Part shown: piece by piece, positions 37,788 through 63,905 of the stretch
Layout of the letters: each line of letters begins with the position of its first letter
Position numbering within the stretch: position 1 is the stretch's first letter
Source: Desulfatibacillum sp.
GTDB taxonomy: Bacteria; Desulfobacterota; Desulfobacteria; Desulfobacterales; SpSt-501
Assembly: GCA_020725555.1 (NCBI GenBank)
Contig: DYEU01000018.1
Location: 79,113-143,112, forward strand
Direction of reading: 5' to 3'
DNA length: 64,000 nucleotides
The notes under the pieces: model-generated
What the model was told of the DNA's origin: nothing
The model's input: the letters and a program-made list of their open reading frames with translations, nothing else
Databases searched by the model: none
Program-made: the position numbers and the translations under genes

Positions 37788-38966
37788 TCAGACGTCGATC
37801 CCGTAGCCGATCTTGTCCCCGTTTCCGAGATAGGCCGTGTCCTTCGACCGGTGGCGGGCCGTGCCCTTGATCACGGGGTAGCCCGCCTCGATGAACTTCT
37901 TGGCGCAAAGAATCCCCGTGCAGTGGTTGCAGCCGATCTTCTTGAAGCCGTATTTGCCGAGCGAAAGGACCAGGTCGTCGTACTTGGGGTCCCAGTCCTC
38001 GAAGGGCGAGATGTGGAGACCCCCGTAGATCCCGTAAAGCTGGTCCTTCTCGTACTTGATCTCGCGGAAGGCCGTTTCCGAGAACTGGATGATCCCGAAG
38101 TGGCAGCAGCCGGTGATGCTGACCAGGCCGTGATCCTTCACGTTCACGTAGATCGACTGCTCGCCGTAGACGCGGCAGATGATCGGGACCGGGAAATTGT
38201 AGGTGGCGAGGCCGGGGATGATGCGGTTCAATTCCCCGGATTTCACCTCGACCAGCTTCCCCTTGTGGCCGGCGTCCTTCAGGTACTGCAGCCCCTCGGG
38301 GTAGAATCCCTGGGGATAGTAGGTGGTGATGTTCGGGTTGTACTTGAAGACGACCGGGATCCCCCAGAAGTGGTCGAAATGCTCGTGGGAGATGATGAAG
38401 GCCTCGATCTCGTTGTCCCGGAGCATCCGGTCGATGCCCTCGCGCTTGAAGCACTCGTCCATCCACTTGTAGGACCAGCCGGAGTCGAGCAGGAACTTTC
38501 TCTTGCGGCCGTCCAGCTCCTCGATCTCGATCAGGGCCGCAAAGCCGCCGGCGTTCTCGGGGCTGACCGAGAGCTTTTCGGTCAGCGCCCAGGCCTCCTC
38601 CAGGTTGTTCGGCAGCAGATGCTTGATCTTGGCGATCCCCTTTTCGTAGCTCCCCTTGCCGAGACCCGTCCCGTCGCCGAAGGGCGGCCAGTTGTAGCTG
38701 TACTGGTTGACGAGCAGGCCGCCCGCCTCCTTGATGTCCTTCATGAGGACGGCGTTCTCGAACCAGCTCGTCTCCGAGATGTTCGTCACCTTGACGGATT
38801 TGCAGACGCCGATGTCGGCGAGCTTGCGTTTCACCTCCGGGAAGTAGGATTTCCTCCAGGGGGAATACGAGAACAGCCCCATCCCCAGGACCGTCCCCCC
38901 CATCACGCCCATCGCGGCGCCCTTGAGGAAGCCGCGGCGGCTGATCGTGGTCTTCTCTTCGGACAT
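37788..38966 (-). CDS. Tat-exported MBL-fold metallo-hydrolase (COG1237-like)
   Basis: From Met34 of ORF 37788..39065: MSEEKTTISRRGFLKGAAMGVMG twin-arginine signal, HEHFDH (HxHxDH) motif, later TGCCHFGI and GCNHCTG blocks. Confidence 0.8.
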   Translation of the reverse strand: MSEEKTTISRRGFLKGAAMGVMGGTVLGMGLFSYSPWRKSYFPEVKRKLADIGVCKSVKVTNISETSWFENAVLMKDIKEAGGLLVNQYSYNWPPFGDGTGLGKGSYEKGIAKIKHLLPNNLEEAWALTEKLSVSPENAGGFAALIEIEELDGRKRKFLLDSGWSYKWMDECFKREGIDRMLRDNEIEAFIISHEHFDHFWGIPVVFKYNPNITTYYPQGFYPEGLQYLKDAGHKGKLVEVKSGELNRIIPGLATYNFPVPIICRVYGEQSIYVNVKDHGLVSITGCCHFGIIQFSETAFREIKYEKDQLYGIYGGLHISPFEDWDPKYDDLVLSLGKYGFKKIGCNHCTGILCAKKFIEAGYPVIKGTARHRSKDTAYLGNGDKIGYGIDV

Positions 38967-38989
38967 GGCTCCTCCTTGTCGGGGCACGG

Positions 38990-40402
38990 TCACTTGATGA
39001 CCGTGATGTTCTTGTAGGCCCAGGGCAGCACGCTCAGGGTGATGAAATAGACCGCCACCCCGCACACCGCCCCCACGCCGAGGCCCCAGCCGAGCGCCGG
39101 GTTCCAGCGGACCTCGGAGAGCCGCGCCTGCTCCGCGGCATGCTCGGCCGCGATCTCCTCGGCGGTCTTGGGCACCATCTTCCAGGCCGGCCAGTTGTCC
39201 ATGAACCAGTGGTGGACCAGCCAGATGTTGATCAGCCAGATGGTCGGGATCATGGGGAACTGCTGCTCGTGCATGAAGCCCTTCTGGGTCCCGAGGTAGT
39301 CATGGGAGGTCTTGTAGTAGAAGATGTAAAGCGCGATCGCCGCGGCGAGCGTGATCACCGTGCGCAAAAAGACGTTCACCGGCAGGCTGAAGCGCCGCGG
39401 CCAGTTGTTGCAGTAAAAGGTCAGGAAAAGCGCCGGGACCAGGAAGAAGACCGCCATCTCGCCCACGTGCAGCCAGCGCCAGTCGGGCGCGTTGATGAGG
39501 CGGGTGCCCCGGATCGCCGGGCCCCAGGTCAGCTCCTGGGCGAAGTAGAGGAAGAAGTGCATCGCCCAGGCGATGGCGATGATCCCGAAGAAGGCGACGG
39601 TGCGGCGCAGCCAGTTCGTCCGGATCAGCTTGAAGGGGAAGCGCTCCCAGATCGTCTCGACCAGCCAGACCGTGACCGTGCAGCACATGATCCAGGCGAC
39701 GTGGAAGTTCCCCGACACCGTGTTCGCGAATTTCTCCCAGTAGGGCGGGGCGATCGCGGTGAAGTACTGCCAGGGGTAGTAGAGAATGCCCATGTGCGAG
39801 TGCATGGTCATGAAGTAGATGAGCGTGCTCAGGAAAAAGGTGAAGACGAGGATGCTGATCCCTTTGGCCGGCTGGCTCAGGTTCTGCCAGGGCACCTCCT
39901 CGCAGGCGACCACCCAGGCGGGGCTCAGCCACGAGGCGATGGCCGCGAACATCAGGCAGGCGAGCGAGGCGTACTCGAGGGCGAAGAACTCGGTCATGCG
40001 CGGCAGCTTCATCAACCGCTCGGGGTTGAAGTAGGCGATCCCGAAGTTGCCGAGGACCGACTCGAAGAAGCCCTTGATCAGCACCCACAGAATCACCACC
40101 GAGATCGCCGTCAGCACCGCCCCCTTGACCAGCGGGTGCGTGTTCTCAAGCCAGCTCCGCTTGAAGGGCCAGTAGTTGAAGATGTAGACCATCCAGATCA
40201 GCATGATCAGCCACCAGCGGGTGTACATGTAGCCCACGTAAGGCGTGTACATCCGCAGCCATCCCCGCGGGTCCTGGAAGACCCACCAGCTCGCGTAGAA
40301 CACGGCGAGCGTCAGCACCAGGGCCACGATCGCCGCGATCGGCTGCGGCCAGCGCGGGATGAGCTTTCGTTCCTCCAGATAGCCGGTGCCGTATCGTTCC
40401 AT
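38990..40402 (-). CDS. Trp-rich polytopic membrane protein, family not recognised (470 aa)
   Basis: From Met49 of ORF 38990..40546 (MERYGTGYLEERKL...) after GAGGAAAGGGGG. Many hydrophobic segments. About 32 Trp by hand count. Conserved-looking His (MHSHMG, NFHVAW, WLVHHWF). Confidence 0.7.
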   Translation of the reverse strand: MERYGTGYLEERKLIPRWPQPIAAIVALVLTLAVFYASWWVFQDPRGWLRMYTPYVGYMYTRWWLIMLIWMVYIFNYWPFKRSWLENTHPLVKGAVLTAISVVILWVLIKGFFESVLGNFGIAYFNPERLMKLPRMTEFFALEYASLACLMFAAIASWLSPAWVVACEEVPWQNLSQPAKGISILVFTFFLSTLIYFMTMHSHMGILYYPWQYFTAIAPPYWEKFANTVSGNFHVAWIMCCTVTVWLVETIWERFPFKLIRTNWLRRTVAFFGIIAIAWAMHFFLYFAQELTWGPAIRGTRLINAPDWRWLHVGEMAVFFLVPALFLTFYCNNWPRRFSLPVNVFLRTVITLAAAIALYIFYYKTSHDYLGTQKGFMHEQQFPMIPTIWLINIWLVHHWFMDNWPAWKMVPKTAEEIAAEHAAEQARLSEVRWNPALGWGLGVGAVCGVAVYFITLSVLPWAYKNITVIK

Positions 40403-40463
40403 GAATATCCCCCTTTCCTCTCGGGTGGGTTGGACAAAACCGCCGAACGCCTCGGCGGCGACT

Positions 40464-40778
40464 TTACCCCTCCGGATCTTCAGCCCCGCAAGACGGGCAC
40501 CCCTCCCCGCCTCCCTGCGGCATGGAGGGCGGCGTGCGCCTCGCAAGCTCTCGGTAAATCGCCCGCCTGAGCGCCGCGGGGTCCTTCAACCCCGGCTCGA
40601 GGCCGCGGCATTCGGCTTCGATTGCGAGCAGCGCCGGGCTGAGCTCGGTTTCCGCCGCGCCGCAGAACGGGTCACGGGACGAATCCGACGAGGGGGGGGC
40701 TGCCGCGGCGGCAAGATCCCCCGCCGCCCGGATGCCCCGGCCGAGGAGATCCCTGAAGAACTCTTTGCGGGAAAGCAT
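40464..40778 (-). CDS. small hypothetical protein (104 aa) with Tat-like S-R-K-E-F-F N-terminal motif and C-terminal CPSC
   Basis: From Met47 of ORF 40464..40916: MLSRKEFFRDLLGRGIRAAG...; GAAGGAGGG RBS. Third-position GC is consistent with coding. No family recognised. Confidence 0.45.
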   Translation of the reverse strand: MLSRKEFFRDLLGRGIRAAGDLAAAAAPPSSDSSRDPFCGAAETELSPALLAIEAECRGLEPGLKDPAALRRAIYRELARRTPPSMPQGGGEGCPSCGAEDPEG

Positions 40779-40790
40779 ACCCTCCTTCAC

Positions 40791-40806
40791 AGCAATTGCG
40801 ATGCCA
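40791..40806 (-). promoter_or_regulatory. sigma54 (-24/-12) promoter motif TGGCATCGCAATTGCT
   Basis: Exact match to TGGCA[CT]-N5-TTGC[AT] on the minus strand. It ends 12 nt before ATG 40778, and the intervening 12 nt contain the SD GAAGGAGGG. Confidence 0.6.
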
Positions 40807-40929: not shown

Positions 40930-41400
40930 TTACGGGTGCAGATTGCCCCCGGGCGAGGGGCTTTCCCGGAAACCGGGCATGCGGAATTTCTCATCCCCCA
41001 ACCGGCCGCTGCGGTAGGCGGCGAACACTTCACGGGCCTCGCCGCTCACCCCGCTGATCACGTCGATCCCCTCGGCTTCAAGGAAGCTGGAGAGGGTCTC
41101 GCTCACCGCGCCGCAGATCACCGTCCGCACCCCGAGACGCTTGATCTCGCCGGCGCGCTGGGAAAGGGAGGCGCCGGCGAAAGAAACCGTGCGCGCCTCG
41201 GCCTCGCCGCCCCCGCGCGGGTCCATCAGGGTGAGGCAGGTGCAGGTGTCGAGGACGGGGGAGACGCGGCCCCGGAACACGGGCACCGCAACCAGGGACT
41301 GCGGCCGGGGAGGGGGGGATGGCGAAGGGGGCTGCGGGAACGCGGGGATCCCAGGTCGTTTCCGGGCGTTTTCGCAGAAGATGCAGGGACGCCTGGCCAT
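40930..41400 (-). CDS. NifX/NifB-type (dinitrogenase FeMo-cofactor-binding-like) domain protein with a 32-aa Cys/Pro-rich N-terminal extension
   Basis: From Met48 of ORF 40930..41541. SLVAVPVFRGRVSPVLD parallels MRIAVAHWQGRISPVFD of gene 60930. ...VICGAVSETLSSFLEAEGIDVISG. Confidence 0.7.
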   Translation of the reverse strand: MARRPCIFCENARKRPGIPAFPQPPSPSPPPRPQSLVAVPVFRGRVSPVLDTCTCLTLMDPRGGGEAEARTVSFAGASLSQRAGEIKRLGVRTVICGAVSETLSSFLEAEGIDVISGVSGEAREVFAAYRSGRLGDEKFRMPGFRESPSPGGNLHP

Positions 41401-41468: not shown

Positions 41469-43043
41469 GGAAGCCGGGGCCCCCCCGCCGCAACGGGACG
41501 GACTGAAGAACGGACCCGTATAACCCAAAGGATCCGCGCACCCAGGCGTTCGGGGAGTACCGGAGTTAGGCTTCCGGCCGGGGTTGACAGGGAAAGCGAG
41601 AGGGAACAACATGCACCCGACGGTGGGCGAAAATCGCGGGTCGCCCCTGGGGGATTCCATGGAGCCGGTTTGCGAAGAGAACGAGCGGCGCCACCACGAG
41701 CTCATCCTCGACAGCATCGAGGAAGGGGTCTTCACGGTCGACCTCACCTGGCGCATCACCTCCTTCAACCGCGCCGCGGAGAAGATCACCGGCGTCCCGC
41801 GGGCCGAGGCCGTCGGCCGCCCCTGCTTCGAGGTCTTCCGCGCCGACGTCTGCGAAACCGGCTGCATGCTGCGCCGCACGCTCGAGAGCGAAACGCCGGT
41901 CGCCAACGTCCTGGTCCACATTTTCCGCGCCGACAAGAAGCGCATCCCCATCCGCATCAGCACCGCCCTGCTCAGGGACCCCGCGGGCCGGCTGGTCGGG
42001 GGGGTCGAGACGTTTCAGGACGTGAGCGCCCTCCAGGAACTGCGGCGGGCCCTGCAGCGGCAGCACCGCTTCGAGGACATCGTGAGCAAGAACCCGCGCA
42101 TGCTCAAGATCTTCGCCATGCTCCCGCAGGTGGCCGAAAGCGGGAGCACGGTGCTGATCGAGGGGGCGAGCGGGACCGGCAAGGAGCTCGTGGCGCGGGC
42201 GATCCACCACCACAGCCCGCAGCGCGAGGGCCCCTTCGTCGCCGTGAACTGCGGGGCGCTCCCCGACACGCTGATCGAGGCCGAGCTCTTCGGCTACAAG
42301 GCCGGGGCCTTCACCGACGCACGGCGGGACCGGGCCGGCCGCTTCGCCCTGGCCCAGAACGGCACGATCTTTCTCGACGAGATCGGCGACATCTCCCCCG
42401 CGCTCCAGGTGCGGCTGCTGCGGGTGCTCCAGGAGCGGGTCTACGAGCCCCTCGGCGCGGGAAAGCCCGTCCCGACGAACGCCCGGGTGATCGCCGCCAC
42501 GCACCGCGACCTGAGCCGTCTTGTCCGCGAGGAGAAATTCCGCGAGGACCTCTACTTCCGGGTCAACGTCTTCAAGATCGCGCTGCCGCCGCTCGCCGAG
42601 CGCCGCGAGGACATCCCGCTGCTCGTCGAGCACTTCATCGACCGCTTCAACCACCGCAGGGGCCGAAACGTCGCCGGGGTCGCCCGCGAGGCGATGGAAG
42701 CGCTCCTGCACCACGACTGGCCGGGAAACGTGCGCGAGCTCGAAAACGCGATCGAGCACGCCTTCGTCCTCTGCCGCGACGACACGATCCGGCTGGAGGA
42801 TCTGCCCGAGCCTCTCCAGGCGGCCGCCGCATCGGGCCGACCGGCCGCCGCGACCACGCTGCGGGACATCGAGCGGGCGGCGATCCTTGCCGCCCTCGAG
42901 CGCCACGGCGGCCGCAAGCTCGCCGCCGCCCGCGAGCTCGGGGTCGACAAGAACACGCTGCGCCGCAAGATGATCCGCCTCGGCCTGCGGCCGCCCCCCG
43001 CCGCCCGGGGCGTCCGGCCTGACCGGGGCGGGCAACCGGCCCC

Positions 43044-46276
<3,233 letters not shown>

Positions 46277-57194: not shown

Positions 57195-57692
57195 TCATCC
57201 GCCGAAGCGACGTTCGAGGGTGGACCCGCAGCCGGGACACCGCAACTTGAAGCACGGAAGGCCCTGATCCTCCTCGCTGCGGTAGCCGCAGCGCTCGCAG
57301 AAGCACCAGCCTGCGGGGTTGGGGCGGGAGGGGGGGGAGAGGGCCGGGGAAGCAGCAACCTTCTCGGCCGCCGGGGCGGCGTGGGCGGGAAAGGCGGGGA
57401 GGTGGTCCCGAATGGCCCCGCGCCGGCCTTCTTCGATCGCGATGCCGACCGCTTCAAGGACGGCCTTGGCGTTCGGGCCGGCGCTTCCGGTGATCACCCG
57501 CTCCACCCCCGCTGCGACCAGTGCCTCCGCGGCGCGGACGCCGGCACCGCCCGAGGCCTTCGCGCCCGGGTTGGGCTCGACGCGAAACGCCCCGCTTGCG
57601 AGATCCACGATCAAAAAATTCCGGCAGCGTCCGAGCGCGGGCTCGATCGGATCCTCGAGCGAACTTCCCTGGGTGGAAAAGGCGATTTTCAC
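57195..57692 (-). CDS. NifX/NifB-type domain protein fused to a C-terminal zinc ribbon
   Basis: GTG start (VKIAFSTQGSSLEDPIEPALGRCRNFLIVD...) after AAGGAGA. ...VITGSAGPNAKAVLEAVGI. Tail CFCERCG...CPGCG. Confidence 0.75.
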   Translation of the reverse strand: MKIAFSTQGSSLEDPIEPALGRCRNFLIVDLASGAFRVEPNPGAKASGGAGVRAAEALVAAGVERVITGSAGPNAKAVLEAVGIAIEEGRRGAIRDHLPAFPAHAAPAAEKVAASPALSPPSRPNPAGWCFCERCGYRSEEDQGLPCFKLRCPGCGSTLERRFGG

Positions 57693-57813
57693 GCGCGTCT
57701 CCTTGGGGCCGGGATGCAACGAACCGCGCCCGGCCCGGGCGCGAGCCCGCCTGGGCAAGGAGCCGGCCGGCGCTCCGCAGGGTGCGCTTCCGCAACCGGC
57801 CGGCCGCCGCGCG

Positions 57814-59133
57814 TCATTTGGCGGACTCCGGGTGAAACACCGCCACCTCCCTCAGGTCGTCTCCCAGGTAAGCCCGCTCGTTGGGGCCGAGGATCCCCAG
57901 CGCCAGGCAAAGGAGCGTCCAGAGGTGAATCACGTGGTAGCCCCCGCCGTAATGTTCGCTCAGTTCATGGATCTGGGCATGGCAGTTGTGGCAACCGGCG
58001 ATGCAGTACTGCGCGCCGGTCGCCCGGATCTGCTCGTCCTTGAGTCGGCCGAACTCGAGGCGCTGGGCCTTGAACCCCGATTGGAGAAACCCCCCGCCGC
58101 CGCCGCAGCAATAGTTGTTGGAGCGGTTGGGCTGCATGTCGATGAAGTTTTCCTCCCCCACCGCCGTCTTGACCACGAAGCGCAGGTCCTCGGCGATCGG
58201 ATCGCCGTAACTCTTGCGGACGATCTGGCAGGGGTCCTGGACCGTGAACTTGATCTTCAGGTCCCGGTTCCAATCGGCGTTGACCTTGAGCCGGCCCTCC
58301 CGGATCCACCGGGCGTAGTATTCGTAGATGTTTTTGACCGTGAACGTGTGCTCGATCTTGAATTTTTTCAGTCCTTCCAGGACCGAAAAGGTGACGTGCC
58401 CTCACTCGGTGTTGAGAAAGACCTTGCACCCCAACTCTTCGGCCTGCCGGGCCGCCGTCGCCGTGATGTGCTTCCAGGCCGCGTCGTCGCCCAGGAACAT
58501 GCAGTAATTCTCGCCACCCCAGCCCTTGGAGCCGTAGGTCCAGTCCGCACCGGCCAGATGCAGCAGCTTCCACAGGGGCACCATTTCGTCGGGTTCGGTC
58601 ACCGGCTCGCGCGAGTTCTGGTTGAGGAAGAATTCGGCCCCCGCCTTGTCAATGGGCGCCTCCATGGCGGCGAATTCCGGCTGCGCCTCGCGGTACTCCG
58701 CCAAGACGTCTTCGACCACGAAGCGGAAGTCCTCGGGCGAGGCGCCCATGGCGCTGCAGCTGTCGTTGCGCAAGGCCATGTCGCACGAACCGCGGATCCC
58801 TTTCGGGCGCTTTTCCCGGGGCCAGGCGGCACGCACGTTGTAGACCAGCCGTGGAATGTCGATTTTCATCGGGCAGACGTAGATGCATCGCTGGCATTGC
58901 GTGCACATCCAGACCCAGTCCGTGGCGAGGATCTCCTCGTCCAGGCCAAGGGCGGCCATGCGCAGAAACTTGCGCGGGTCCAGGCCCTCCAGCCCCGTCG
59001 CCGGGCAACCCGAGGAGCAGGCGCCGCAGGTGAGGCACAGGTTGAGATGGCCGCCTTCCGGGAGAATCTCCCGGACCTTTTCCATGAATGTCGTGCGTCG
59101 TTTTCCCCCCAAGCGAATGACGGTCTCCTCCAT
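57814..59133 (-). CDS. HdrD-like Fe-S oxidoreductase (2x[4Fe-4S] + two CCG domains), selenoprotein; in-frame UGA at 58402-58404 read as Sec
   Basis: The last 243 codons of ORF 58402..60786 (MEETVIRLGG...CLTCGACSSGCP...CTQCQRCIYVCP...KVFLNTE) stop at TGA. The same frame continues GHVTFSVLEGLKKF... into ORF 57814..58176 (NYCCGGGGG, CIAGCHNC). GAGGAGGAG RBS before ATG 59133. Confidence 0.85.
58365..58389 (-). promoter_or_regulatory. strong candidate SECIS hairpin for the hdrD-like UGA
   Basis: RNA UUUUCGGUCC-UGGAA-GGACUGAAAA (10-bp stem with one G-U pair, 5-nt loop) begins 13 nt after the UGA. The loop occupies UGA+23..+27. Confidence 0.65.
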
Positions 59134-59239: not shown

Positions 59240-59255
59240 AGCAAGACACATGCCA
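59240..59255 (-). promoter_or_regulatory. sigma54 (-24/-12) promoter TGGCATGTGTCTTGCT upstream of the hdrD-like selenoprotein gene
   Basis: Exact match to TGGCA[CT]-N5-TTGC[AT]. About 95-nt leader to ATG 59133. It lies 112-125 nt downstream of a TTGC-N5-GCAA palindrome and just after the activator gene. Confidence 0.7.
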
Positions 59256-59366: not shown

Positions 59367-59379
59367 TTGCAACATGCAA
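59367..59379. promoter_or_regulatory. palindrome TTGCAACATGCAA (TTGC-N5-GCAA), candidate activator binding site (UAS)
   Basis: Perfect inverted repeat TTGCA-ACA-TGCAA directly after the activator stop codon. It is preceded by GCAACC, giving GCAA-CC-TTGC. Confidence 0.4.
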
Positions 59380-59381
59380 TT

Positions 59382-60743
<1,362 letters not shown>

Positions 60744-60812
60744 GAAGCCTCCTCCGGCCGGCGGGCCATGGCCAAAGACCGTGCATCGTGCATTATAGGA
60801 AATGCTTTATTC

Positions 60813-60825
60813 TTGCATAACGCAA
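60813..60825. promoter_or_regulatory. imperfect palindrome TTGCATAACGCAA (TTGC-N5-GCAA), candidate UAS
   Basis: Lies in the only AT-rich stretch of the divergent intergenic region, 77-89 nt upstream of the -24 element at 60902. Confidence 0.35.
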
Positions 60826-60901
60826 GATGGAAATCCATCCCCGGCGCGGGGTGTGGGCCGCTTCCTGCTGCCCTCGGCCGCGCGGCCCCGTTTTTTCCGT
60901 A

Positions 60902-60917
60902 TGGCACCGCCTTTGCA
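60902..60917 (+). promoter_or_regulatory. sigma54 (-24/-12) promoter TGGCACCGCCTTTGCA
   Basis: Full consensus TGGCAC-N5-TTGCA. It ends exactly 12 nt before ATG 60930. Confidence 0.7.
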
Positions 60918-60929
60918 GGGATACTCGGC

Positions 60930-61331
60930 ATGCGGATTGCTGTCGCCCACTGGCAAGGCCGGATTTCTCCGGTCTTCGATGAAGCGCAGGATCTCTGGGT
61001 GGTGACGGTCGACGGCGGCCGGGAGATCGGGCGCGACCGCCTGCGGCTCAGGACGCGCAACCTCTTGGATCGGGTGCGAATCCTCTGCGAGCAGGAAATC
61101 GAGGTCCTGCTCTGCGGGGCGATCTCCTTTTCCCTGGAGCACGCTCTGGAAGCCGCGGGCATCCGGGTCGTGGGTTTCCTCGCCGGGGAGTGCGAACCGA
61201 TTCTCGTCTCGTTTCTCAACGCCCGCGGCCACGCCGCCGGCCCGGTGCGTTTCGCGACGCGACGGCGATTCCCCCGGCCGGAGCCCCGGCAGGGCAAGGC
61301 CCGCCCGCCGACATCCGGCCGCGGGCGATGA
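60930..61331 (+). CDS. NifX/NifB-type domain protein (133 aa)
   Basis: Last part of ORF 59148..61331: MRIAVAHWQGRISPVFDEAQDLWVV...VLLCGAISFSLEHALEAAGIRVVGF. Confidence 0.75.
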   Translation: MRIAVAHWQGRISPVFDEAQDLWVVTVDGGREIGRDRLRLRTRNLLDRVRILCEQEIEVLLCGAISFSLEHALEAAGIRVVGFLAGECEPILVSFLNARGHAAGPVRFATRRRFPRPEPRQGKARPPTSGRGR

Positions 61332-61363: not shown

Positions 61364-61981
61364 ATGAAAGTCGCCATCAGCGCCAGCGCACCTTCCCTCG
61401 AGGCCCCGCTGGATCCCCGATTCGGCCGTGCCCCGTGGTTCCTGATCGTCGATCCCGAAACCCTCGCCGTCGAGGAAATCGCCAATCCGGCCGCCTCCGG
61501 TGCCGGCGGCGCCGGCATTGAGGCGGCCCGGGCCATCGCCGCACGGGCGGTAACGAACGTGCTCACCGGCCGCTGCGGCCCGAATGCCGCAGCGGCGTTG
61601 TCCGCCGCGAACATCGTGTTCGTCGAGGGCTGTTCCGGAACGGCGCGCGAAGCCCTCGAGCGCTTTCTCGCCGCAGCCCCTCCGGCCGCGGAGGCCGGGC
61701 CGGCGGCGGGCCGTCCCGCCGCGGACCGCCTGCCGCAACCACCCGGCCCTGGACCCGGCGGCGCACCCCCCATGCGCGGCGGCGGGGGTCGCGGGGGATG
61801 CGGGCGGATGCGCGGCGGCGGCGGAGGACGCGGAGGGGGAGGCGGCGGGAGGGCGGGAAGTTTCGGTCCTCCCCGAACCCCCGTAGGCTCAACCCTCGAG
61901 GAAGAGGCCGAGCGGCTGCGCCGGCGGCTTGCGGAAATCGAAGAGCGTCGCGGAACGCGCATCCCGCCCTCCCGCCGGTGA
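61364..61981 (+). CDS. NifX/NifB-type domain fused to a Gly/Arg-rich linker and C-terminal coiled coil (DUF5320-like tail)
   Basis: From Met59 of ORF 61190..61981: MKVAISASAPSLEAPLDPRFGRAPWFLIVD...VLTGRCGPNAAAAL. Then GGGGRGGCGRMRGGGGGRGGGGGG and LEEEAERLRRRLAEIEERR. Confidence 0.75.
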   Translation: MKVAISASAPSLEAPLDPRFGRAPWFLIVDPETLAVEEIANPAASGAGGAGIEAARAIAARAVTNVLTGRCGPNAAAALSAANIVFVEGCSGTAREALERFLAAAPPAAEAGPAAGRPAADRLPQPPGPGPGGAPPMRGGGGRGGCGRMRGGGGGRGGGGGGRAGSFGPPRTPVGSTLEEEAERLRRRLAEIEERRGTRIPPSRR

Positions 61982-61992
61982 GCGGCAGGGTC

Positions 61993-63000
61993 ATGGCCGC
62001 TCGCCCGCCGCGTCCCCCGGAAGGGGGGTTCCTCTACGGCCCGGTCCCCTCGCGGCGCCTCGGGCGCTCGCTCGGCGTGGATCTCGTCCCGTTCAAGACC
62101 TGCAGCTACGATTGCGTCTACTGCCAGCTCGGGCGCACGACCTGCCGGACGCTCGAGCGCTCGGAGTACGTGCCGACGACGCAGGTCCTCGATGCGATCG
62201 CGGCATTTCGGCGAAGCGGCGCGGCCGCCGATTTCATCGGCATCGCCGGCTCCGGCGAGCCGACGCTGCACGCCGGGATCGGGGACATCATCGCCGGCAT
62301 CCGCCAACGGACGCGCCTCCCGGTCGCCGTGCTCACCAACGGCTCCTTGCTCTGGGACGCGGAGGTGCGGCGGGAGCTCTCCCGGGCGCACGTGGTGATT
62401 CCTTCGCTGGACGCCGGCGGGCCGCGAACCTTCCGTCGCGTCAACCGCCCCCACCCCGGGCTCGCATTCGAAACGGTGGTGGAGGGGCTGGCCGCGTTCG
62501 CCGCCGGGTTCCGGGGAGAGATCTGGCTCGAAGTCATGTTCGTCGCCGGGATCAACACCGACCTGCGCGAGGTCCGCCGCATCGCCCGCCTGGCCGACCG
62601 CATCGGCCCGCGGCGCATCCAGCTCAACACCGTCGTCCGGCCGCCCGCCGAGCGCTTTGCACGCCCCGTCCCGCGGGAAGATCTCGCGCGGCTGGCCCGC
62701 TGCCTGGGCGGGAGGGCGGAATGCATCGCCGACTTCCGACCGGACGCAGAGACCGCGACACCCCGCAGCCGGGCGGGTGAGCGAGCGATTCTGGAATTGC
62801 TCGCCCGCCGCCCCTGTACGGTATCGGGGATCGCCGACGGGCTCGCCATCCATCCTCAGGAAGCCGTGAAGCGCCTGGACGATCTCCTGCGCCGGGGGCT
62901 CGTCGCGGTGAACGAGCGGGACGGCGAGCGCTACTTCGGCCTCAAGCGGATCCGCACGCCGCGGGTCCGCAGCGGCCTTCCGGAAAGGAGCCTTCCATGA
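61993..63000 (+). CDS. radical SAM protein (COG0731-like)
   Basis: From Met66 of ORF 61798..63000: MAARPPRPPEGGFLYGPVPSRRLGRSLGVDLVPFKTCSYDCVYCQ (CxxxCxxC), GSGEPTL. C-terminal winged-helix-like tail. Confidence 0.85.
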   Translation: MAARPPRPPEGGFLYGPVPSRRLGRSLGVDLVPFKTCSYDCVYCQLGRTTCRTLERSEYVPTTQVLDAIAAFRRSGAAADFIGIAGSGEPTLHAGIGDIIAGIRQRTRLPVAVLTNGSLLWDAEVRRELSRAHVVIPSLDAGGPRTFRRVNRPHPGLAFETVVEGLAAFAAGFRGEIWLEVMFVAGINTDLREVRRIARLADRIGPRRIQLNTVVRPPAERFARPVPREDLARLARCLGGRAECIADFRPDAETATPRSRAGERAILELLARRPCTVSGIADGLAIHPQEAVKRLDDLLRRGLVAVNERDGERYFGLKRIRTPRVRSGLPERSLP

Positions 63001-63905
63001 CCCGCACCCCCTCCTCCCCCTCTTCCTCCTGCGGCACCTGCGACCGGCCCGACTGCTCGGCCAAGGCCCCCCGGCCGGGGGAGGGCGAGGCCGAATTCGT
63101 CGAGCGCCGGGAACTCGAGGCACGCCTGTGCCGCATCCGACACCGCATCGTCGTCCTCTCGGGCAAGGGCGGCGTCGGGAAAAGCACGGTGGCCGTCAAC
63201 CTGGCCGCGGGGCTGCTGCAGGAAGGCCACACCGTCGGCCTGCTCGACGTGGACCTTCACGGCCCCAGCATCCCCACGATGCTCGGGCTGGAGCGGCAGC
63301 GTCTCGGCGGCAACGACCGGGAAATCCACCCCGCGGACGTGGGCGGGCTCAAGGTCGTCTCCATCGGCTTCTTTCTGTCCTCGCCGGACGACGCCGTCAT
63401 CTGGCGCGGGCCGCTCAAAATGGGGGCCATCAAGCAGTTTTTAAAGGACGTGGCCTGGGGTGATCTCGATTTCCTGGTGATCGACTCCCCGCCCGGGACC
63501 GGGGACGAACCGCTTTCGGTTTGCCAACTGATCGGGCGCCTGGACGGTGCGGTGATCGTGACCACCCCCCAGCGGGTGGCGGCGGTCGACGTGCGCAAGT
63601 CGATCACGTTCTGCCGCCACCTTCAGGTCCCGGTCCTGGGGGTCGTGGAGAACATGAGCGGTTTTGCCTGCCCGAAGTGCGGGGAGGTGACCCAGATCTT
63701 CCGGACCGGCGGCGGGCGCAGGATCGCCGAGGACATGGGGATCGCCTTCCTCGGGTCGATTCCGCTGGACCCGGCGCTCGCCGACTCCGGCGACGGCGGC
63801 GAGCCCTTCCTCCGCCGCCACGCCGACTCGCCGACGGCGGAGCGGCTGCGACGCTTAATCCGGCCCATCGCCGCGCTCGCCGCCGCAGAGCAGCGGCCGG
63901 CCTGA
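62997..63905 (+). CDS. Mrp/NBP35 (ApbC-like) P-loop ATPase, Fe-S cluster carrier family
   Basis: Deviant Walker A SGKGGVGKST, ...DSPPGTGDE..., CPKCG motif, N-terminal CGTCDRPDC. ATGA overlap with the radical SAM stop. Confidence 0.88.
   Translation: MTRTPSSPSSSCGTCDRPDCSAKAPRPGEGEAEFVERRELEARLCRIRHRIVVLSGKGGVGKSTVAVNLAAGLLQEGHTVGLLDVDLHGPSIPTMLGLERQRLGGNDREIHPADVGGLKVVSIGFFLSSPDDAVIWRGPLKMGAIKQFLKDVAWGDLDFLVIDSPPGTGDEPLSVCQLIGRLDGAVIVTTPQRVAAVDVRKSITFCRHLQVPVLGVVENMSGFACPKCGEVTQIFRTGGGRRIAEDMGIAFLGSIPLDPALADSGDGGEPFLRRHADSPTAERLRRLIRPIAALAAAEQRPA

What the first reader, a model, noticed from the sequence alone, without database searches (positions are those of the whole stretch)
60902..60932. 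Consensus sigma54 promoters placed exactly 12 nt before the ATG at two loci: predicted near-leaderless sigma54 transcripts
TGGCACCGCCTTTGCA-N12-ATG lies at 60902-60932. TGGCATCGCAATTGCT-N12-ATG lies at 40806-40776 on the minus strand. With the GC of the -12 element at -12/-13, transcription would start 1-3 nt before the start codon in both cases. Under equal base frequencies, TGGCA[CT]-N5-TTGC[AT] is expected about 0.1 times on both strands of 64 kb, yet three exact copies occur, all in intergenic DNA next to sigma54 activators. Identical promoter-to-ATG spacing at two of them is unlikely to be accidental. Leaderless sigma54 mRNAs are, to my knowledge, not a described class.
Basis: partly seen in the sequence, partly recalled or inferred. 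Interest (0 to 1): 0.65.

Follow-up and report, generated by a model that had tools for sequence, protein, structure and literature searches.

The report
Sigma-54 promoters abutting start codons
[quoted passage not shown] For one of them the same layout is kept in 65 of 80 related genomes labelled as eight phyla, which points to a conserved and apparently undescribed class of leaderless sigma-54 transcripts. No transcription start site has been mapped.

Summary

**In the window.** There are three exact TGGCAY-N5-TTGCW motifs, against 0.04 expected. Two of them lie exactly 12 nt before an ATG (60930 on the + strand; 40778 on the - strand).

**The ATGs are the real starts.**
- ATG 60930 opens a NifX-like protein whose N-terminus (M-K/R-I/V-A-x-A-H-W-Q-G-R-I-S-P-V-F-D) is conserved from Met1.
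- ATG 40778 opens a conserved 104-aa protein whose MLSRKEFF N-terminus has an invariant M-L-S-R.

**Spacing in relatives.** Let d be the distance from the C of the -12 GC to the A of the ATG.
- In 80 NifX-like loci, 65 have a sigma-54 motif at d = 13-17 (mode 15, never below 13). The spacer sequence is not conserved, and only 2 of 65 carry a Shine-Dalgarno core.
- The 11 relatives with d = 21-38 mostly carry GGAGG-type Shine-Dalgarno sequences (9 of 11).
- Only 0.47% of other ATGs in these loci show such a motif at that spacing.
- The second family keeps d = 14 only in its close relatives. More distant ones have 60-85 nt leaders.

**Context.** It is an orp/OrpR-like regulon: a PAS Fe-S Cys triad, a GAFTDA motif, and an MrpORP-like protein. 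In Desulfovibrio vulgaris the homologous orp1 promoter is leadered.

**Conclusion.** The best explanation is mRNAs with leaders of about 0-6 nt, translated from a 5'-proximal AUG. No start site is mapped, and no prior description was found.

The parts
59382..60743 (-). OrpR-like sigma-54 activator (PAS - AAA+ - HTH_8), transcribed divergently from the NifX-like gene
   Evidence: Pfam Sigma54_activat 3.9e-69, plus PAS and HTH_8. It carries GAFTDA and C53-x-D55-x6-C62-x3-C66 (read from the translation), the same signatures as D. vulgaris OrpR. A divergent homologue at 68-88% identity is present in 75 of 80 related loci.
60782..60792 (.). Upstream activator site 1, TGCATCGTGCA (TGCA-N3-TGCA), about 148 nt before the ATG
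   Evidence: It falls in a conserved block of the intergenic alignment A3. TGCA-N2-6-TGCA sites cluster near -118 and -150 in 51 of 79 loci, against 7% background. It is one of only two exact sites in the window.
60812..60826 (.). Upstream activator site 2, the palindrome CTTGCATAACGCAAG (TGCA-N3-CGCA, one mismatch), about 115 nt before the ATG
   Evidence: It aligns with the conserved TTGCATnnTGCAA block, and its position matches the -118 cluster.
60902..60917 (+). Sigma-54 (-24/-12) promoter TGGCACCGCCTTTGCA
   Evidence: Exact consensus match. The TGGCA and TTGC columns are invariant in the intergenic alignment. Homologous motifs occur in 76 of 80 loci.
60927..60930 (+). Predicted transcription start (G60927/G60928, or A60930), giving a leader of 0-3 nt
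   Evidence: Inferred from the -24/-12 geometry. G is enriched 11 nt after the -12 C in 35 of 65 loci. Not measured.
60930..61331 (+). NifX-like (PF02579) gene of 133 aa, first gene of the operon, with no Shine-Dalgarno sequence
   Evidence: Pfam match. The N-terminus is conserved from Met1. d = 14.
61364..61981 (+). Second NifX/ORP-like gene of the operon
   Evidence: PF02579, 5.5e-19. Syntenic in 55 loci.
61993..63000 (+). Radical SAM gene (start approximate)
   Evidence: PF04055. Syntenic in 18 loci.
62997..63905 (+). Mrp/NBP35 ATPase resembling MrpORP
   Evidence: NCBIfam MrpORP, 8.3e-114 and 380.7 bits, below the 450-bit cut-off. Only profile positions 2-255 of 365 match, so the C-terminal domain is absent.
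59240..59255 (-). Third sigma-54 promoter, TGGCATGTGTCTTGCT, with an ordinary leader of about 95 nt. It serves as an internal contrast.
   Evidence: GGAGGAG precedes ATG 59133, which starts a 4Fe-4S dicluster protein gene (58402-59133, -).
59368..59378 (.). TGCAACATGCA, the same activator-site motif, about 115 nt upstream of the third promoter
   Evidence: It is the only other exact TGCA-N3-TGCA in the window.
40791..40806 (-). Sigma-54 promoter TGGCATCGCAATTGCT
   Evidence: Exact consensus match. Identical or near-identical in L081, L083 and L084.
40464..40778 (-). Conserved 104-aa protein of unknown function (MLSRKEFFRDLL...); its ATG lies 12 nt after the promoter (d = 14)
   Evidence: 24 homologues with M-L-S-R invariant. 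No Pfam or NCBIfam family. The AAGGAGG in the spacer is not conserved in L083 or L084.
38990..40405 (-). Downstream membrane protein of the same transcription unit (start approximate)
   Evidence: ORF, with no family hit. A 65%-identical homologue lies next to the NifX-like gene in L048.
37788..39065 (-). Metallo-beta-lactamase-fold protein with a TAT signal, downstream
   Evidence: Pfam Lactamase_B and TAT_signal, both weak.
40930..41400 (-). NifX-like paralogue with a Cys-containing N-terminal extension. It has a GGGGGGAG Shine-Dalgarno-like run and a weak sigma-54-like motif (41468-41453) about 50 nt upstream.
41584..43092 (+). Second OrpR-like activator (PAS - AAA+ - HTH)
   Evidence: Pfam. 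GAFTDA and C-x-E-x6-C-x3-C are read from the translation.

Best explanation
Both sites are functional sigma-54 promoters of an orp/OrpR-like regulon. They sit so that RNA polymerase starts 0-6 nt upstream of the AUG of the first gene.

Proposed mechanism at locus 1:
1. A redox-sensing OrpR-like activator (PAS domain with an Fe-S Cys triad) binds a pair of TGCA-N3-TGCA sites about 85-120 bp upstream of the promoter.
2. It remodels the sigma-54 holoenzyme bound at TGGCAC-N5-TTGCA.
3. The resulting mRNA begins at or just before the AUG, probably at a G 2-3 nt upstream.
4. That AUG is therefore translated by the leaderless route, in which the ribosome recognises a 5'-proximal AUG without a Shine-Dalgarno sequence. 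Downstream genes of the operon use ordinary initiation.

A consequence (inferred): only transcripts started at the sigma-54 promoter put the AUG at the 5' end. Read-through RNA would then not express the first gene, which would add a translational lock to an already tightly off promoter class.

Shown here:
- the motifs and their spacing;
- the authenticity of the start codons;
- conservation of spacer length without conservation of spacer sequence;
- absence of a Shine-Dalgarno sequence;
- the linked activator and its sites.

Inferred: the exact start site, sigma-54 dependence in this organism, and the mode of translation initiation.
For: - Motifs: exact consensus, 3 found against 0.04 expected.
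- Start codons: Met1 and the following residues are conserved in both families, and the Pfam domain starts at residue 10.
- Spacing in 80 NifX-like loci: 76 have a sigma-54 motif within 150 nt. The distribution of d is 13 (8 loci), 14 (13), 15 (31), 16 (11) and 17 (2), which is 65 loci with none below 13.
- Control: 0.47% of 13,936 other ATGs in the same loci have such a motif at d = 13-17.
- Spacers: sequences are unrelated while length is kept.
- Shine-Dalgarno core in -18..-4: 2 of 65 in the abutting class against 9 of 11 in relatives with d = 21-38.
- Start codon: ATG in 62 of 65.
- Possible initiating base: G is enriched 11 nt after the -12 C in 35 of 65 loci.
- Breadth: records are labelled Desulfobacterota, Planctomycetota, Acidobacteriota, Verrucomicrobiota, Nitrospirota, Chloroflexota, Hydrogenedentota and Lentisphaerota.
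- Second family: d = 14 in L081, L083 and L084 with different spacers.
- Specificity: other sigma-54-driven genes in about 0.6 Mb of related DNA have d >= 21.
- Conserved blocks: only the activator sites, the -24/-12 elements and the ATG are conserved in the intergenic alignment.
- Alternatives not seen: no sigma-70-like promoter and no Rfam family in either region.
- Experimental precedent: the orthologous D. vulgaris operons are sigma-54/OrpR/IHF dependent (PMC3897727, PMC8359166).
Against: - No start site is mapped for any member.
- With the commonest spacing (d = 15) the leader would be about 2-4 nt rather than 0. In E. coli extra 5' nucleotides lower leaderless translation (my own knowledge, not tested here).
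- Leaderless translation has not been studied in most of these phyla.
- In D. vulgaris, the one experimentally studied orp system, orp1 has d = 36 and a marked Shine-Dalgarno sequence. The abutting layout is therefore not required for orp function.
- The activator is 68-74% identical across phyla. The module may have spread horizontally, so the loci are not fully independent samples.
- Predicted 5' mRNA structure is no weaker than in shuffled controls (z about 0).
Confidence: 0.75

Rival explanations
1. The sigma-54 motifs are real promoters, but the protein is made from a longer transcript started at another upstream promoter. Transcripts from the sigma-54 start would serve only the downstream genes.
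For: It cannot be excluded without RNA data. At locus 2 an upstream NifX-like gene (41400-40930) on the same strand could read through into ORF104.
Against: - Such a model puts no constraint on promoter-to-ATG distance, yet d is held to 13-17 with a sharp lower limit at 13.
- A longer transcript would need a Shine-Dalgarno sequence, and only 2 of 65 loci have one.
- No sigma-70-like promoter was found.
- No other conserved block exists in the intergenic region.
Confidence: 0.1
2. The transcripts do start next to the AUG, but initiation is not classical leaderless initiation. It depends instead on elements inside the coding sequence, for example the A/G-rich second and third codons such as AUGAGGAUC or AUGAAGAUC.
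For: Codon 2 is almost always AAG, AGG, AAA or AGA, and the commonest spacing implies a 2-4 nt leader rather than a 5'-terminal AUG.
Against: A Lys or Arg at position 2 is also a protein-level feature of the family. The window's own genes use CGG and CUU as codon 2.
Confidence: 0.1
3. The start codons are mis-assigned, the real starts lie downstream, and the transcripts have ordinary leaders.
For: The window's locus 2 has AAGGAGG just before the ATG, which could suggest another reading of the region.
Against: - Met1 and the residues after it are conserved in both families.
- The next in-frame start in the NifX-like gene is the GTG at codon 24 or 25 (read). Using it would delete the invariant R-x-S-P-V-x-D block of A1.
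- AAGGAGG is not conserved in L083 or L084.
Confidence: 0.03
4. Chance juxtaposition of sigma-54-like motifs and ATGs.
For: None beyond the small sample of two loci in the window.
Against: 3 motifs found against 0.04 expected. 65 of 80 loci against 0.47% of control ATGs.
Confidence: 0.01

Closest known systems
orp operons of Desulfovibrio vulgaris Hildenborough (orp1 DVU2107-2109, orp2 DVU2103-2105, regulator OrpR DVU2106; PMC3897727, PMC8359166, PMC4641369)
   Same: - The activator has the same PAS - AAA+ - HTH build, the unusual GAFTDA motif and the C-x-[DE]-x6-C-x3-C Fe-S triad.
- It sits between sigma-54-driven operons.
- The operons encode NifX/ORP-like proteins and an MrpORP-like ATPase.
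- Paired palindromic activator sites lie upstream of the promoters.
   Different: - In D. vulgaris the orp1 promoter lies 36 nt (C of the GC to the ATG) from the start codon and a GAGGT Shine-Dalgarno sequence is marked. Here, and in 65 of 80 relatives, the distance is 13-17 nt with no Shine-Dalgarno sequence.
- The activator site differs: TGCA-N3-TGCA here against GGGCGYRTTTTGCGCCC, which is absent from the window.
- The Mrp lacks the C-terminal NifX-like domain.
- A radical SAM gene is inserted in the operon.
Leaderless mRNAs from sigma-70-type promoters (Deinococcus-Thermus '-10 region adjacent to ORFs', PMC12340547; 171 leaderless starts in Sinorhizobium meliloti, PMC3616915; also mycobacteria and Caulobacter)
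   Same: A promoter element sits at a fixed short distance from an AUG. There is no Shine-Dalgarno sequence, and AUG is strongly preferred as the start codon.
   Different: The promoter here is the -24/-12 class. That class is activator- and ATP-dependent and has no -10 element. None of the retrieved start-site papers that I opened linked a leaderless transcript to sigma-54; the rest I judged from title and abstract only.
Canonical sigma-54 promoters with leaders (the third promoter in this window at 59255-59240, and the leadered subfamilies L007, L009, L016, L023, L032, L041, L064)
   Same: The same -24/-12 consensus, the same regulon and the same activator-site motif.
   Different: Leaders of about 20-95 nt that carry GGAGG-type Shine-Dalgarno sequences.

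Membership tests
Sigma-54 (-24/-12) promoter | GG and GC doublets exactly 10 bp apart within TGGCAC-N5-TTGCW | tested here: met
   Exact matches at 60902-60917 and 40806-40791. The motif is conserved in 76 of 80 loci of one family and 41 of 42 of the other.
Sigma-54 (-24/-12) promoter | A cognate enhancer-binding protein with upstream binding sites | tested here: met
   Sigma54_activat proteins are adjacent. A divergent activator is present in 75 of 80 loci. Conserved TGCA-N3-TGCA pairs lie about 85-120 bp upstream of the promoter.
Sigma-54 (-24/-12) promoter | Transcription depends on rpoN and the activator, with a start about 12 nt after the GC | not testable with these tools
   Needs RNA 5'-end mapping and mutants. 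It has been shown only for the leadered D. vulgaris orthologues (PMC3897727).
Leaderless mRNA | 5' UTR of 0-5 nt (definition cited in PMC12754779) | not testable with these tools
   Predicted from geometry only. d = 14 in the window gives a 1-3 nt leader, and d = 13-17 in relatives gives 0-6 nt.
Leaderless mRNA | No Shine-Dalgarno sequence before the start codon | tested here: met
   A GGAG, GAGG or AGGA core occurs in -18..-4 in 2 of 65 abutting loci against 9 of 11 leadered relatives. Any such sequence would in any case lie upstream of the predicted start.
Leaderless mRNA | AUG start codon strongly preferred | tested here: met
   62 of 65 abutting loci start with ATG and 3 with GTG. Both window genes use ATG.
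orp / OrpR regulon | Activator with a PAS domain carrying three conserved Cys (C52, C61, C65) plus D/E54, and a GAFTDA loop | tested here: met
   Activator 1 has C53-C-D55-x6-C62-x3-C66 and GAFTDA. Activator 2 has C-F-E-x6-C-x3-C and GAFTDA (translations, compared).
orp / OrpR regulon | MrpORP iron-sulfur carrier (NCBIfam NF041136 equivalog) | tested here: inconclusive
   380.7 bits against a 450-bit cut-off. It matches profile positions 2-255 of 365, so the C-terminal NifX-like domain is missing.
orp / OrpR regulon | OrpR operator GGGCGYRTTTTGCGCCC | tested here: not met
   Only chance-level matches with 3 mismatches, none near the promoters. A different palindrome is conserved instead.

The most novel reading that the evidence does not exclude
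A conserved class of sigma-54-dependent leaderless mRNAs exists across anaerobes labelled as at least eight phyla. The -24/-12 promoter is held 13-17 nt from the AUG, so transcription start and translation start coincide. Expression of the first orp-like gene would then require both activator-driven sigma-54 initiation and recognition of a 5'-terminal AUG. This would be a combined transcriptional and translational lock that makes read-through RNA silent.
Probability: 0.55. Interest if true: 0.75.

Novelty: new variant of a known kind. Interest (0 to 1): 0.62.

Why it matters
Sigma-54 promoters and leaderless mRNAs are each well known. Their combination was not found in the open literature I could search, and here it is conserved rather than incidental.

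If start-site mapping confirms it:
1. Leaderless initiation would be shown to work in lineages where it has hardly been looked at (Desulfobacterota, Planctomycetota, Acidobacteriota and others).
2. It would give a natural case where one regulon switched several times between a Shine-Dalgarno-led and a leaderless layout: D. vulgaris and the MKVALAVWNG subfamily against the rest. That is useful for asking why leaders are kept or lost.
3. It suggests a very tight off state, because only RNA started at the activator-dependent promoter is translatable.
4. It explains annotation errors. 13 of the 32 aligned family members carry spurious N-terminal extensions, some reading the TTGCT -12 element as Leu-Leu, and 2 are called short. 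Start-codon callers that look for a ribosome-binding site plausibly fail here.
5. It offers a compact regulated expression cassette for anaerobes.

Tried and rejected
- A genome scan with the single NifX-like protein found nothing. The alignment-based scan worked.
- I asked whether the 'leadered' ORF104 relatives really start at an upstream in-frame ATG close to their promoter. L085 suggested this, with an ATG at offset 18. Most relatives have in-frame stops, so the idea is rejected and the 60-85 nt leaders are non-coding.
- Folding of the first 42 nt of the mRNA: mean z is about 0 in both the abutting and leadered classes, and unpaired probabilities are similar. This was uninformative.
- The AAGGAGG before ATG 40778 as a Shine-Dalgarno sequence: rejected. 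It ends 2 nt from the ATG, would lie upstream of the predicted start, and is absent in L083 and L084.
- The D. vulgaris OrpR operator is not present.
- There are no Rfam families in the window and no sigma-70-like promoter in either intergenic region.
- Fievet et al. 2011 (PMC3133258), which maps the D. vulgaris orp start sites, is not held. The +1 marks in Figure S1 of PMC3897727 could not be placed from the text version, so the GC-to-start distance could not be calibrated on an experimental orthologue.
- The second sigma-54-like motif, CGGCATGCGGATTGCT (60926-60941), overlaps the start codon. The homologue upstream regions printed do not show it, so I treat it as coincidence.

Full report
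**1. The observation**

TGGCACCGCCTTTGCA lies at 60902-60917 on the + strand, followed by 12 nt and ATG 60930. TGGCATCGCAATTGCT lies at 40806-40791 on the - strand, followed by 12 nt and ATG 40778.

The pattern TGGCAY-N5-TTGCW occurs three times in the window. Dinucleotide-preserving shuffles give 0.04 on average, and none of 100 shuffles reached three.

The third copy (59255-59240, -) has an ordinary layout. It lies about 107 nt before ATG 59133, which carries a GGAGGAG Shine-Dalgarno sequence (SD). A looser scan of the whole window found no other strong intergenic candidate. The exception is a weak motif (41468-41453) about 50 nt before a NifX-like paralogue that does have an SD.

**2. What the genes are**

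ATG 60930 opens a 133-aa NifX-like protein (PF02579; the domain starts at residue 10). Its neighbours are:
- a divergent PAS - sigma54-AAA+ - HTH activator (59382-60743, -);
- a second NifX/ORP-like gene, a radical SAM gene and an Mrp/NBP35 ATPase downstream.

The Mrp scores 380.7 bits on NCBIfam MrpORP. This is below the 450-bit cut-off because the C-terminal domain is absent.

Both activators in the window carry two signatures reported for OrpR of Desulfovibrio vulgaris:
- the unusual GAFTDA loop (PMC4641369);
- the Cys pattern C-x-[DE]-x6-C-x3-C, the [4Fe-4S] redox-sensing PAS domain with C52, C61, C65 and D/E54 (PMC8359166).

The window therefore holds two orp/OrpR-like modules.

ATG 40778 opens a 104-aa protein with no family assignment. 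A membrane protein and a TAT-signal metallo-beta-lactamase-fold protein follow it.

**3. Are the ATGs the real starts?**

For the NifX-like protein, 31 homologues align from residue 1. The consensus is M-K/R-I/V-A-x-A-H-W-Q-G-R-I/V-S-P-V-F-D, and Met1 is nearly invariant.

In the window gene the next in-frame start is the GTG at codon 24 or 25 (read). Using it would delete the invariant R-x-S-P-V-x-D block.

For the 104-aa protein, 24 homologues share an MLSRKEFF N-terminus in which M-L-S-R is invariant.

In both families some database entries carry N-terminal extensions. These appear to translate the promoter itself, for example '...RGIAIAVKEGM' from cgTGGCATCGCAATTGCTgtg. Gene callers evidently found no ribosome-binding site at the true start.

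**4. Is the spacing conserved?**

An alignment-based scan of one genome per species returned 80 loci encoding relatives of the NifX-like protein. I define d as the distance from the C of the -12 GC to the A of the ATG. In the window d = 14 at both loci.

Results for the 80 loci:

| d (nt) | loci |
|---|---|
| 13 | 8 |
| 14 | 13 |
| 15 | 31 |
| 16 | 11 |
| 17 | 2 |
| 21-38 | 11 |

- 76 of 80 have a sigma-54 motif within 150 nt of the start.
- 65 of 80 have d = 13-17, and none has d below 13.
- The spacer sequences are unrelated to one another while their length is kept.
- G is enriched 11 nt after the C (35 of 65). This is compatible with an initiating purine 1-6 nt before the AUG.

Controls and contrasts:
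- Only 0.47% of 13,936 other ATGs in the same loci have a comparable motif at d = 13-17.
- An SD core occurs in -18..-4 in 2 of 65 abutting loci, but in 9 of 11 loci with d = 21-38. The latter group includes the MKVALAVWNG subfamily, which carries GGAGG.
- 62 of the 65 abutting genes start with ATG.
- The abutting layout occurs in records labelled Desulfobacterales, Syntrophales, Syntrophorhabdus (including the isolate genome S. aromaticivorans UI), Desulfomonilia, Phycisphaerae, Planctomycetia, Bryobacterales, Terriglobia, Verrucomicrobia, Nitrospiraceae, Anaerolineaceae, Hydrogenedentota and Victivallaceae.
- The divergent activator is present in 75 of 80 loci at 68-88% identity. The module may therefore have moved horizontally, and bin labels of metagenome-assembled genomes can be wrong. 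Even so, the diverged spacers show that length has been maintained over long times.

**5. The second family**

A metagenome scan returned 42 loci.
- The three close relatives that have upstream sequence (L081, L083, L084; 63-91% identity) keep d = 14 exactly. Their spacers differ: gtgtaggagggt, tgaatctcaggt, ttctctgtcggc. The SD-like AAGGAGG of the window is therefore incidental.
- The 38 more distant relatives all have a perfect sigma-54 motif at d = 73-96.
- The upstream in-frame reading is interrupted by stops in most of them. These are real 60-85 nt non-coding leaders.

This family is sigma-54-driven throughout, and it became abutting in one clade, the one the window belongs to.

**6. Anatomy of the control region**

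Aligning the intergenic region of the window with ten relatives shows conservation of only the following blocks:
- two blocks, cGTGCAnnnTGCAt and TTGCATnnTGCAA;
- TGGCA...TTGC;
- the ATG.

TGCA-N2-6-TGCA sites, almost all with a 3-nt spacer, cluster near -118 and -150 from the ATG in 51 of 79 loci, against 7% of random windows.

In the window the sites are 60782-60792 (exact) and 60812-60826 (one mismatch). The only other exact TGCA-N3-TGCA in 64 kb is at 59368-59378, about 115 nt upstream of the third promoter. Activator 1 therefore probably drives the operons on both of its sides, as OrpR does in D. vulgaris.

The D. vulgaris operator GGGCGYRTTTTGCGCCC is absent. No sigma-70-like promoter and no Rfam family is present.

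**7. Mechanism**

The name and geometry of -24/-12 promoters place +1 about 12 nt after the GC (PMC8359166). The exact range of 11-13 nt is from my own knowledge of characterised promoters such as glnAp2 and nifH.

With d = 13-17 the leader is 0-6 nt, which is too short to hold an SD and its spacing. The sharp lower limit at d = 13 is what one expects if the AUG must be included in the transcript. The narrow upper limit is what one expects if the AUG must stay 5'-proximal.

The simplest reading is leaderless or near-leaderless translation of a sigma-54 transcript. I put this at about 0.75.

A further, inferred idea is that this layout makes read-through RNA untranslatable for the first gene. 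That would add to the tight off state of sigma-54 promoters.

**8. Comparison with what is known**

The system is an orp/OrpR-like regulon, but the experimentally studied D. vulgaris orp1 promoter is leadered. Counting in Figure S1 of PMC3897727 gives d = 36, with a marked GAGGT SD.

Leaderless mRNAs with a promoter element fixed next to the ORF are known for sigma-70-type promoters, for example in Deinococcus-Thermus (PMC12340547) and S. meliloti (PMC3616915).

I ran four full-text searches: 'leaderless' with sigma54; with sigma-54 and 'transcription start site'; with RpoN; and with 'enhancer binding protein'. They returned 36, 5, 35 and 11 papers. I opened three of the start-site and regulator papers among them. 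None reports a leaderless sigma-54 transcript. In the PexR paper the leaderless gene is the sigma-A-driven regulator itself. The other hits I judged from title and abstract only. The library misses most subscription journals, so this is absence of evidence, not proof.

**9. Verdict**

That evidence is far broader than the two loci in the window.

I classify it as a new variant of a known kind: a sigma-54 promoter combined with leaderless initiation, conserved in one regulon. The missing piece is a mapped start site.

Noticed in passing
L085-L122 (metagenome loci), the 73-96 nt between the sigma-54 promoter and the MLSRK start codon: Distant relatives of the 104-aa protein have a long non-coding leader with recurring blocks, for example ...gtaaa(a/g)ccc-T-run-gggg...aagattctg...cctttccgYGGGATCG... 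A GGAATCGC/GGGATCG element lies about 5-8 nt before the ATG in place of a canonical Shine-Dalgarno sequence. It could be a structured regulatory leader.
   Followed up: partly
window 60926-60941 (+): A second sigma-54-like motif, CGGCATGCGGATTGCT (GG-N10-GC), overlaps the start codon of the NifX-like gene. It lies exactly 24 nt downstream of the first promoter. The homologue upstream regions printed do not show it, so it is probably coincidence.
   Followed up: partly
Protein database entries P0007, P0009, P0012, P0018, P0021-P0023, P0027, P0028, P0030, P0031, P0067, P0083, P0087, P0090: Gene calls for both families often carry spurious N-terminal extensions that translate the promoter (TTGCT read as Leu-Leu; TGGCATCGCAATTGCT read as G-I-A-I-A). 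Others are called short, starting at 'MAHWQ'. This is a systematic start-codon annotation error at these sites without a Shine-Dalgarno sequence.
   Followed up: partly
window 59368-59378 and 59240-59255 (-); genes 58402-59133, 57814-58176 and 57195-57758 (-): The operon on the other side of activator 1 has the same TGCA-N3-TGCA site and a leadered sigma-54 promoter. From their translations, its genes encode a 4Fe-4S dicluster protein, a Cys-rich protein that looks like an HdrB/HdrD-type CCG domain, and a NifX-like protein with a C-terminal CxxC...CxxC zinc-ribbon tail. Only the first was checked against Pfam. The layout mirrors the orp1/orp2 arrangement around orpR.
   Followed up: partly
L001-L080, activator gene upstream of the NifX-like gene: The OrpR-like activator is 68-74% identical between records labelled as different phyla (Victivallaceae, Planctomycetaceae, Nitrospiraceae, Acidobacteria, Desulfobacterales). 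The adjacent NifX-like protein is only about 40-47% identical. This suggests either unusually strong constraint or horizontal spread of the module among anaerobes.
   Followed up: no
window 40930-41400 (-): A NifX-like paralogue has a 35-aa N-terminal extension containing CxxC (MARRPCIFCENARK...) and a proline-rich linker. It is preceded by a weak sigma-54-like motif (41468-41453) and a GGGGGGAG Shine-Dalgarno-like run. One locus thus holds a leadered and an abutting sigma-54 unit in tandem.
   Followed up: no
L048:2-1216 (-): A 65%-identical homologue of the window's 471-aa membrane protein (38990-40405), which has no family assignment, lies next to the NifX-like gene in an Acidobacteriota genome. 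This links the two window loci functionally.
   Followed up: no
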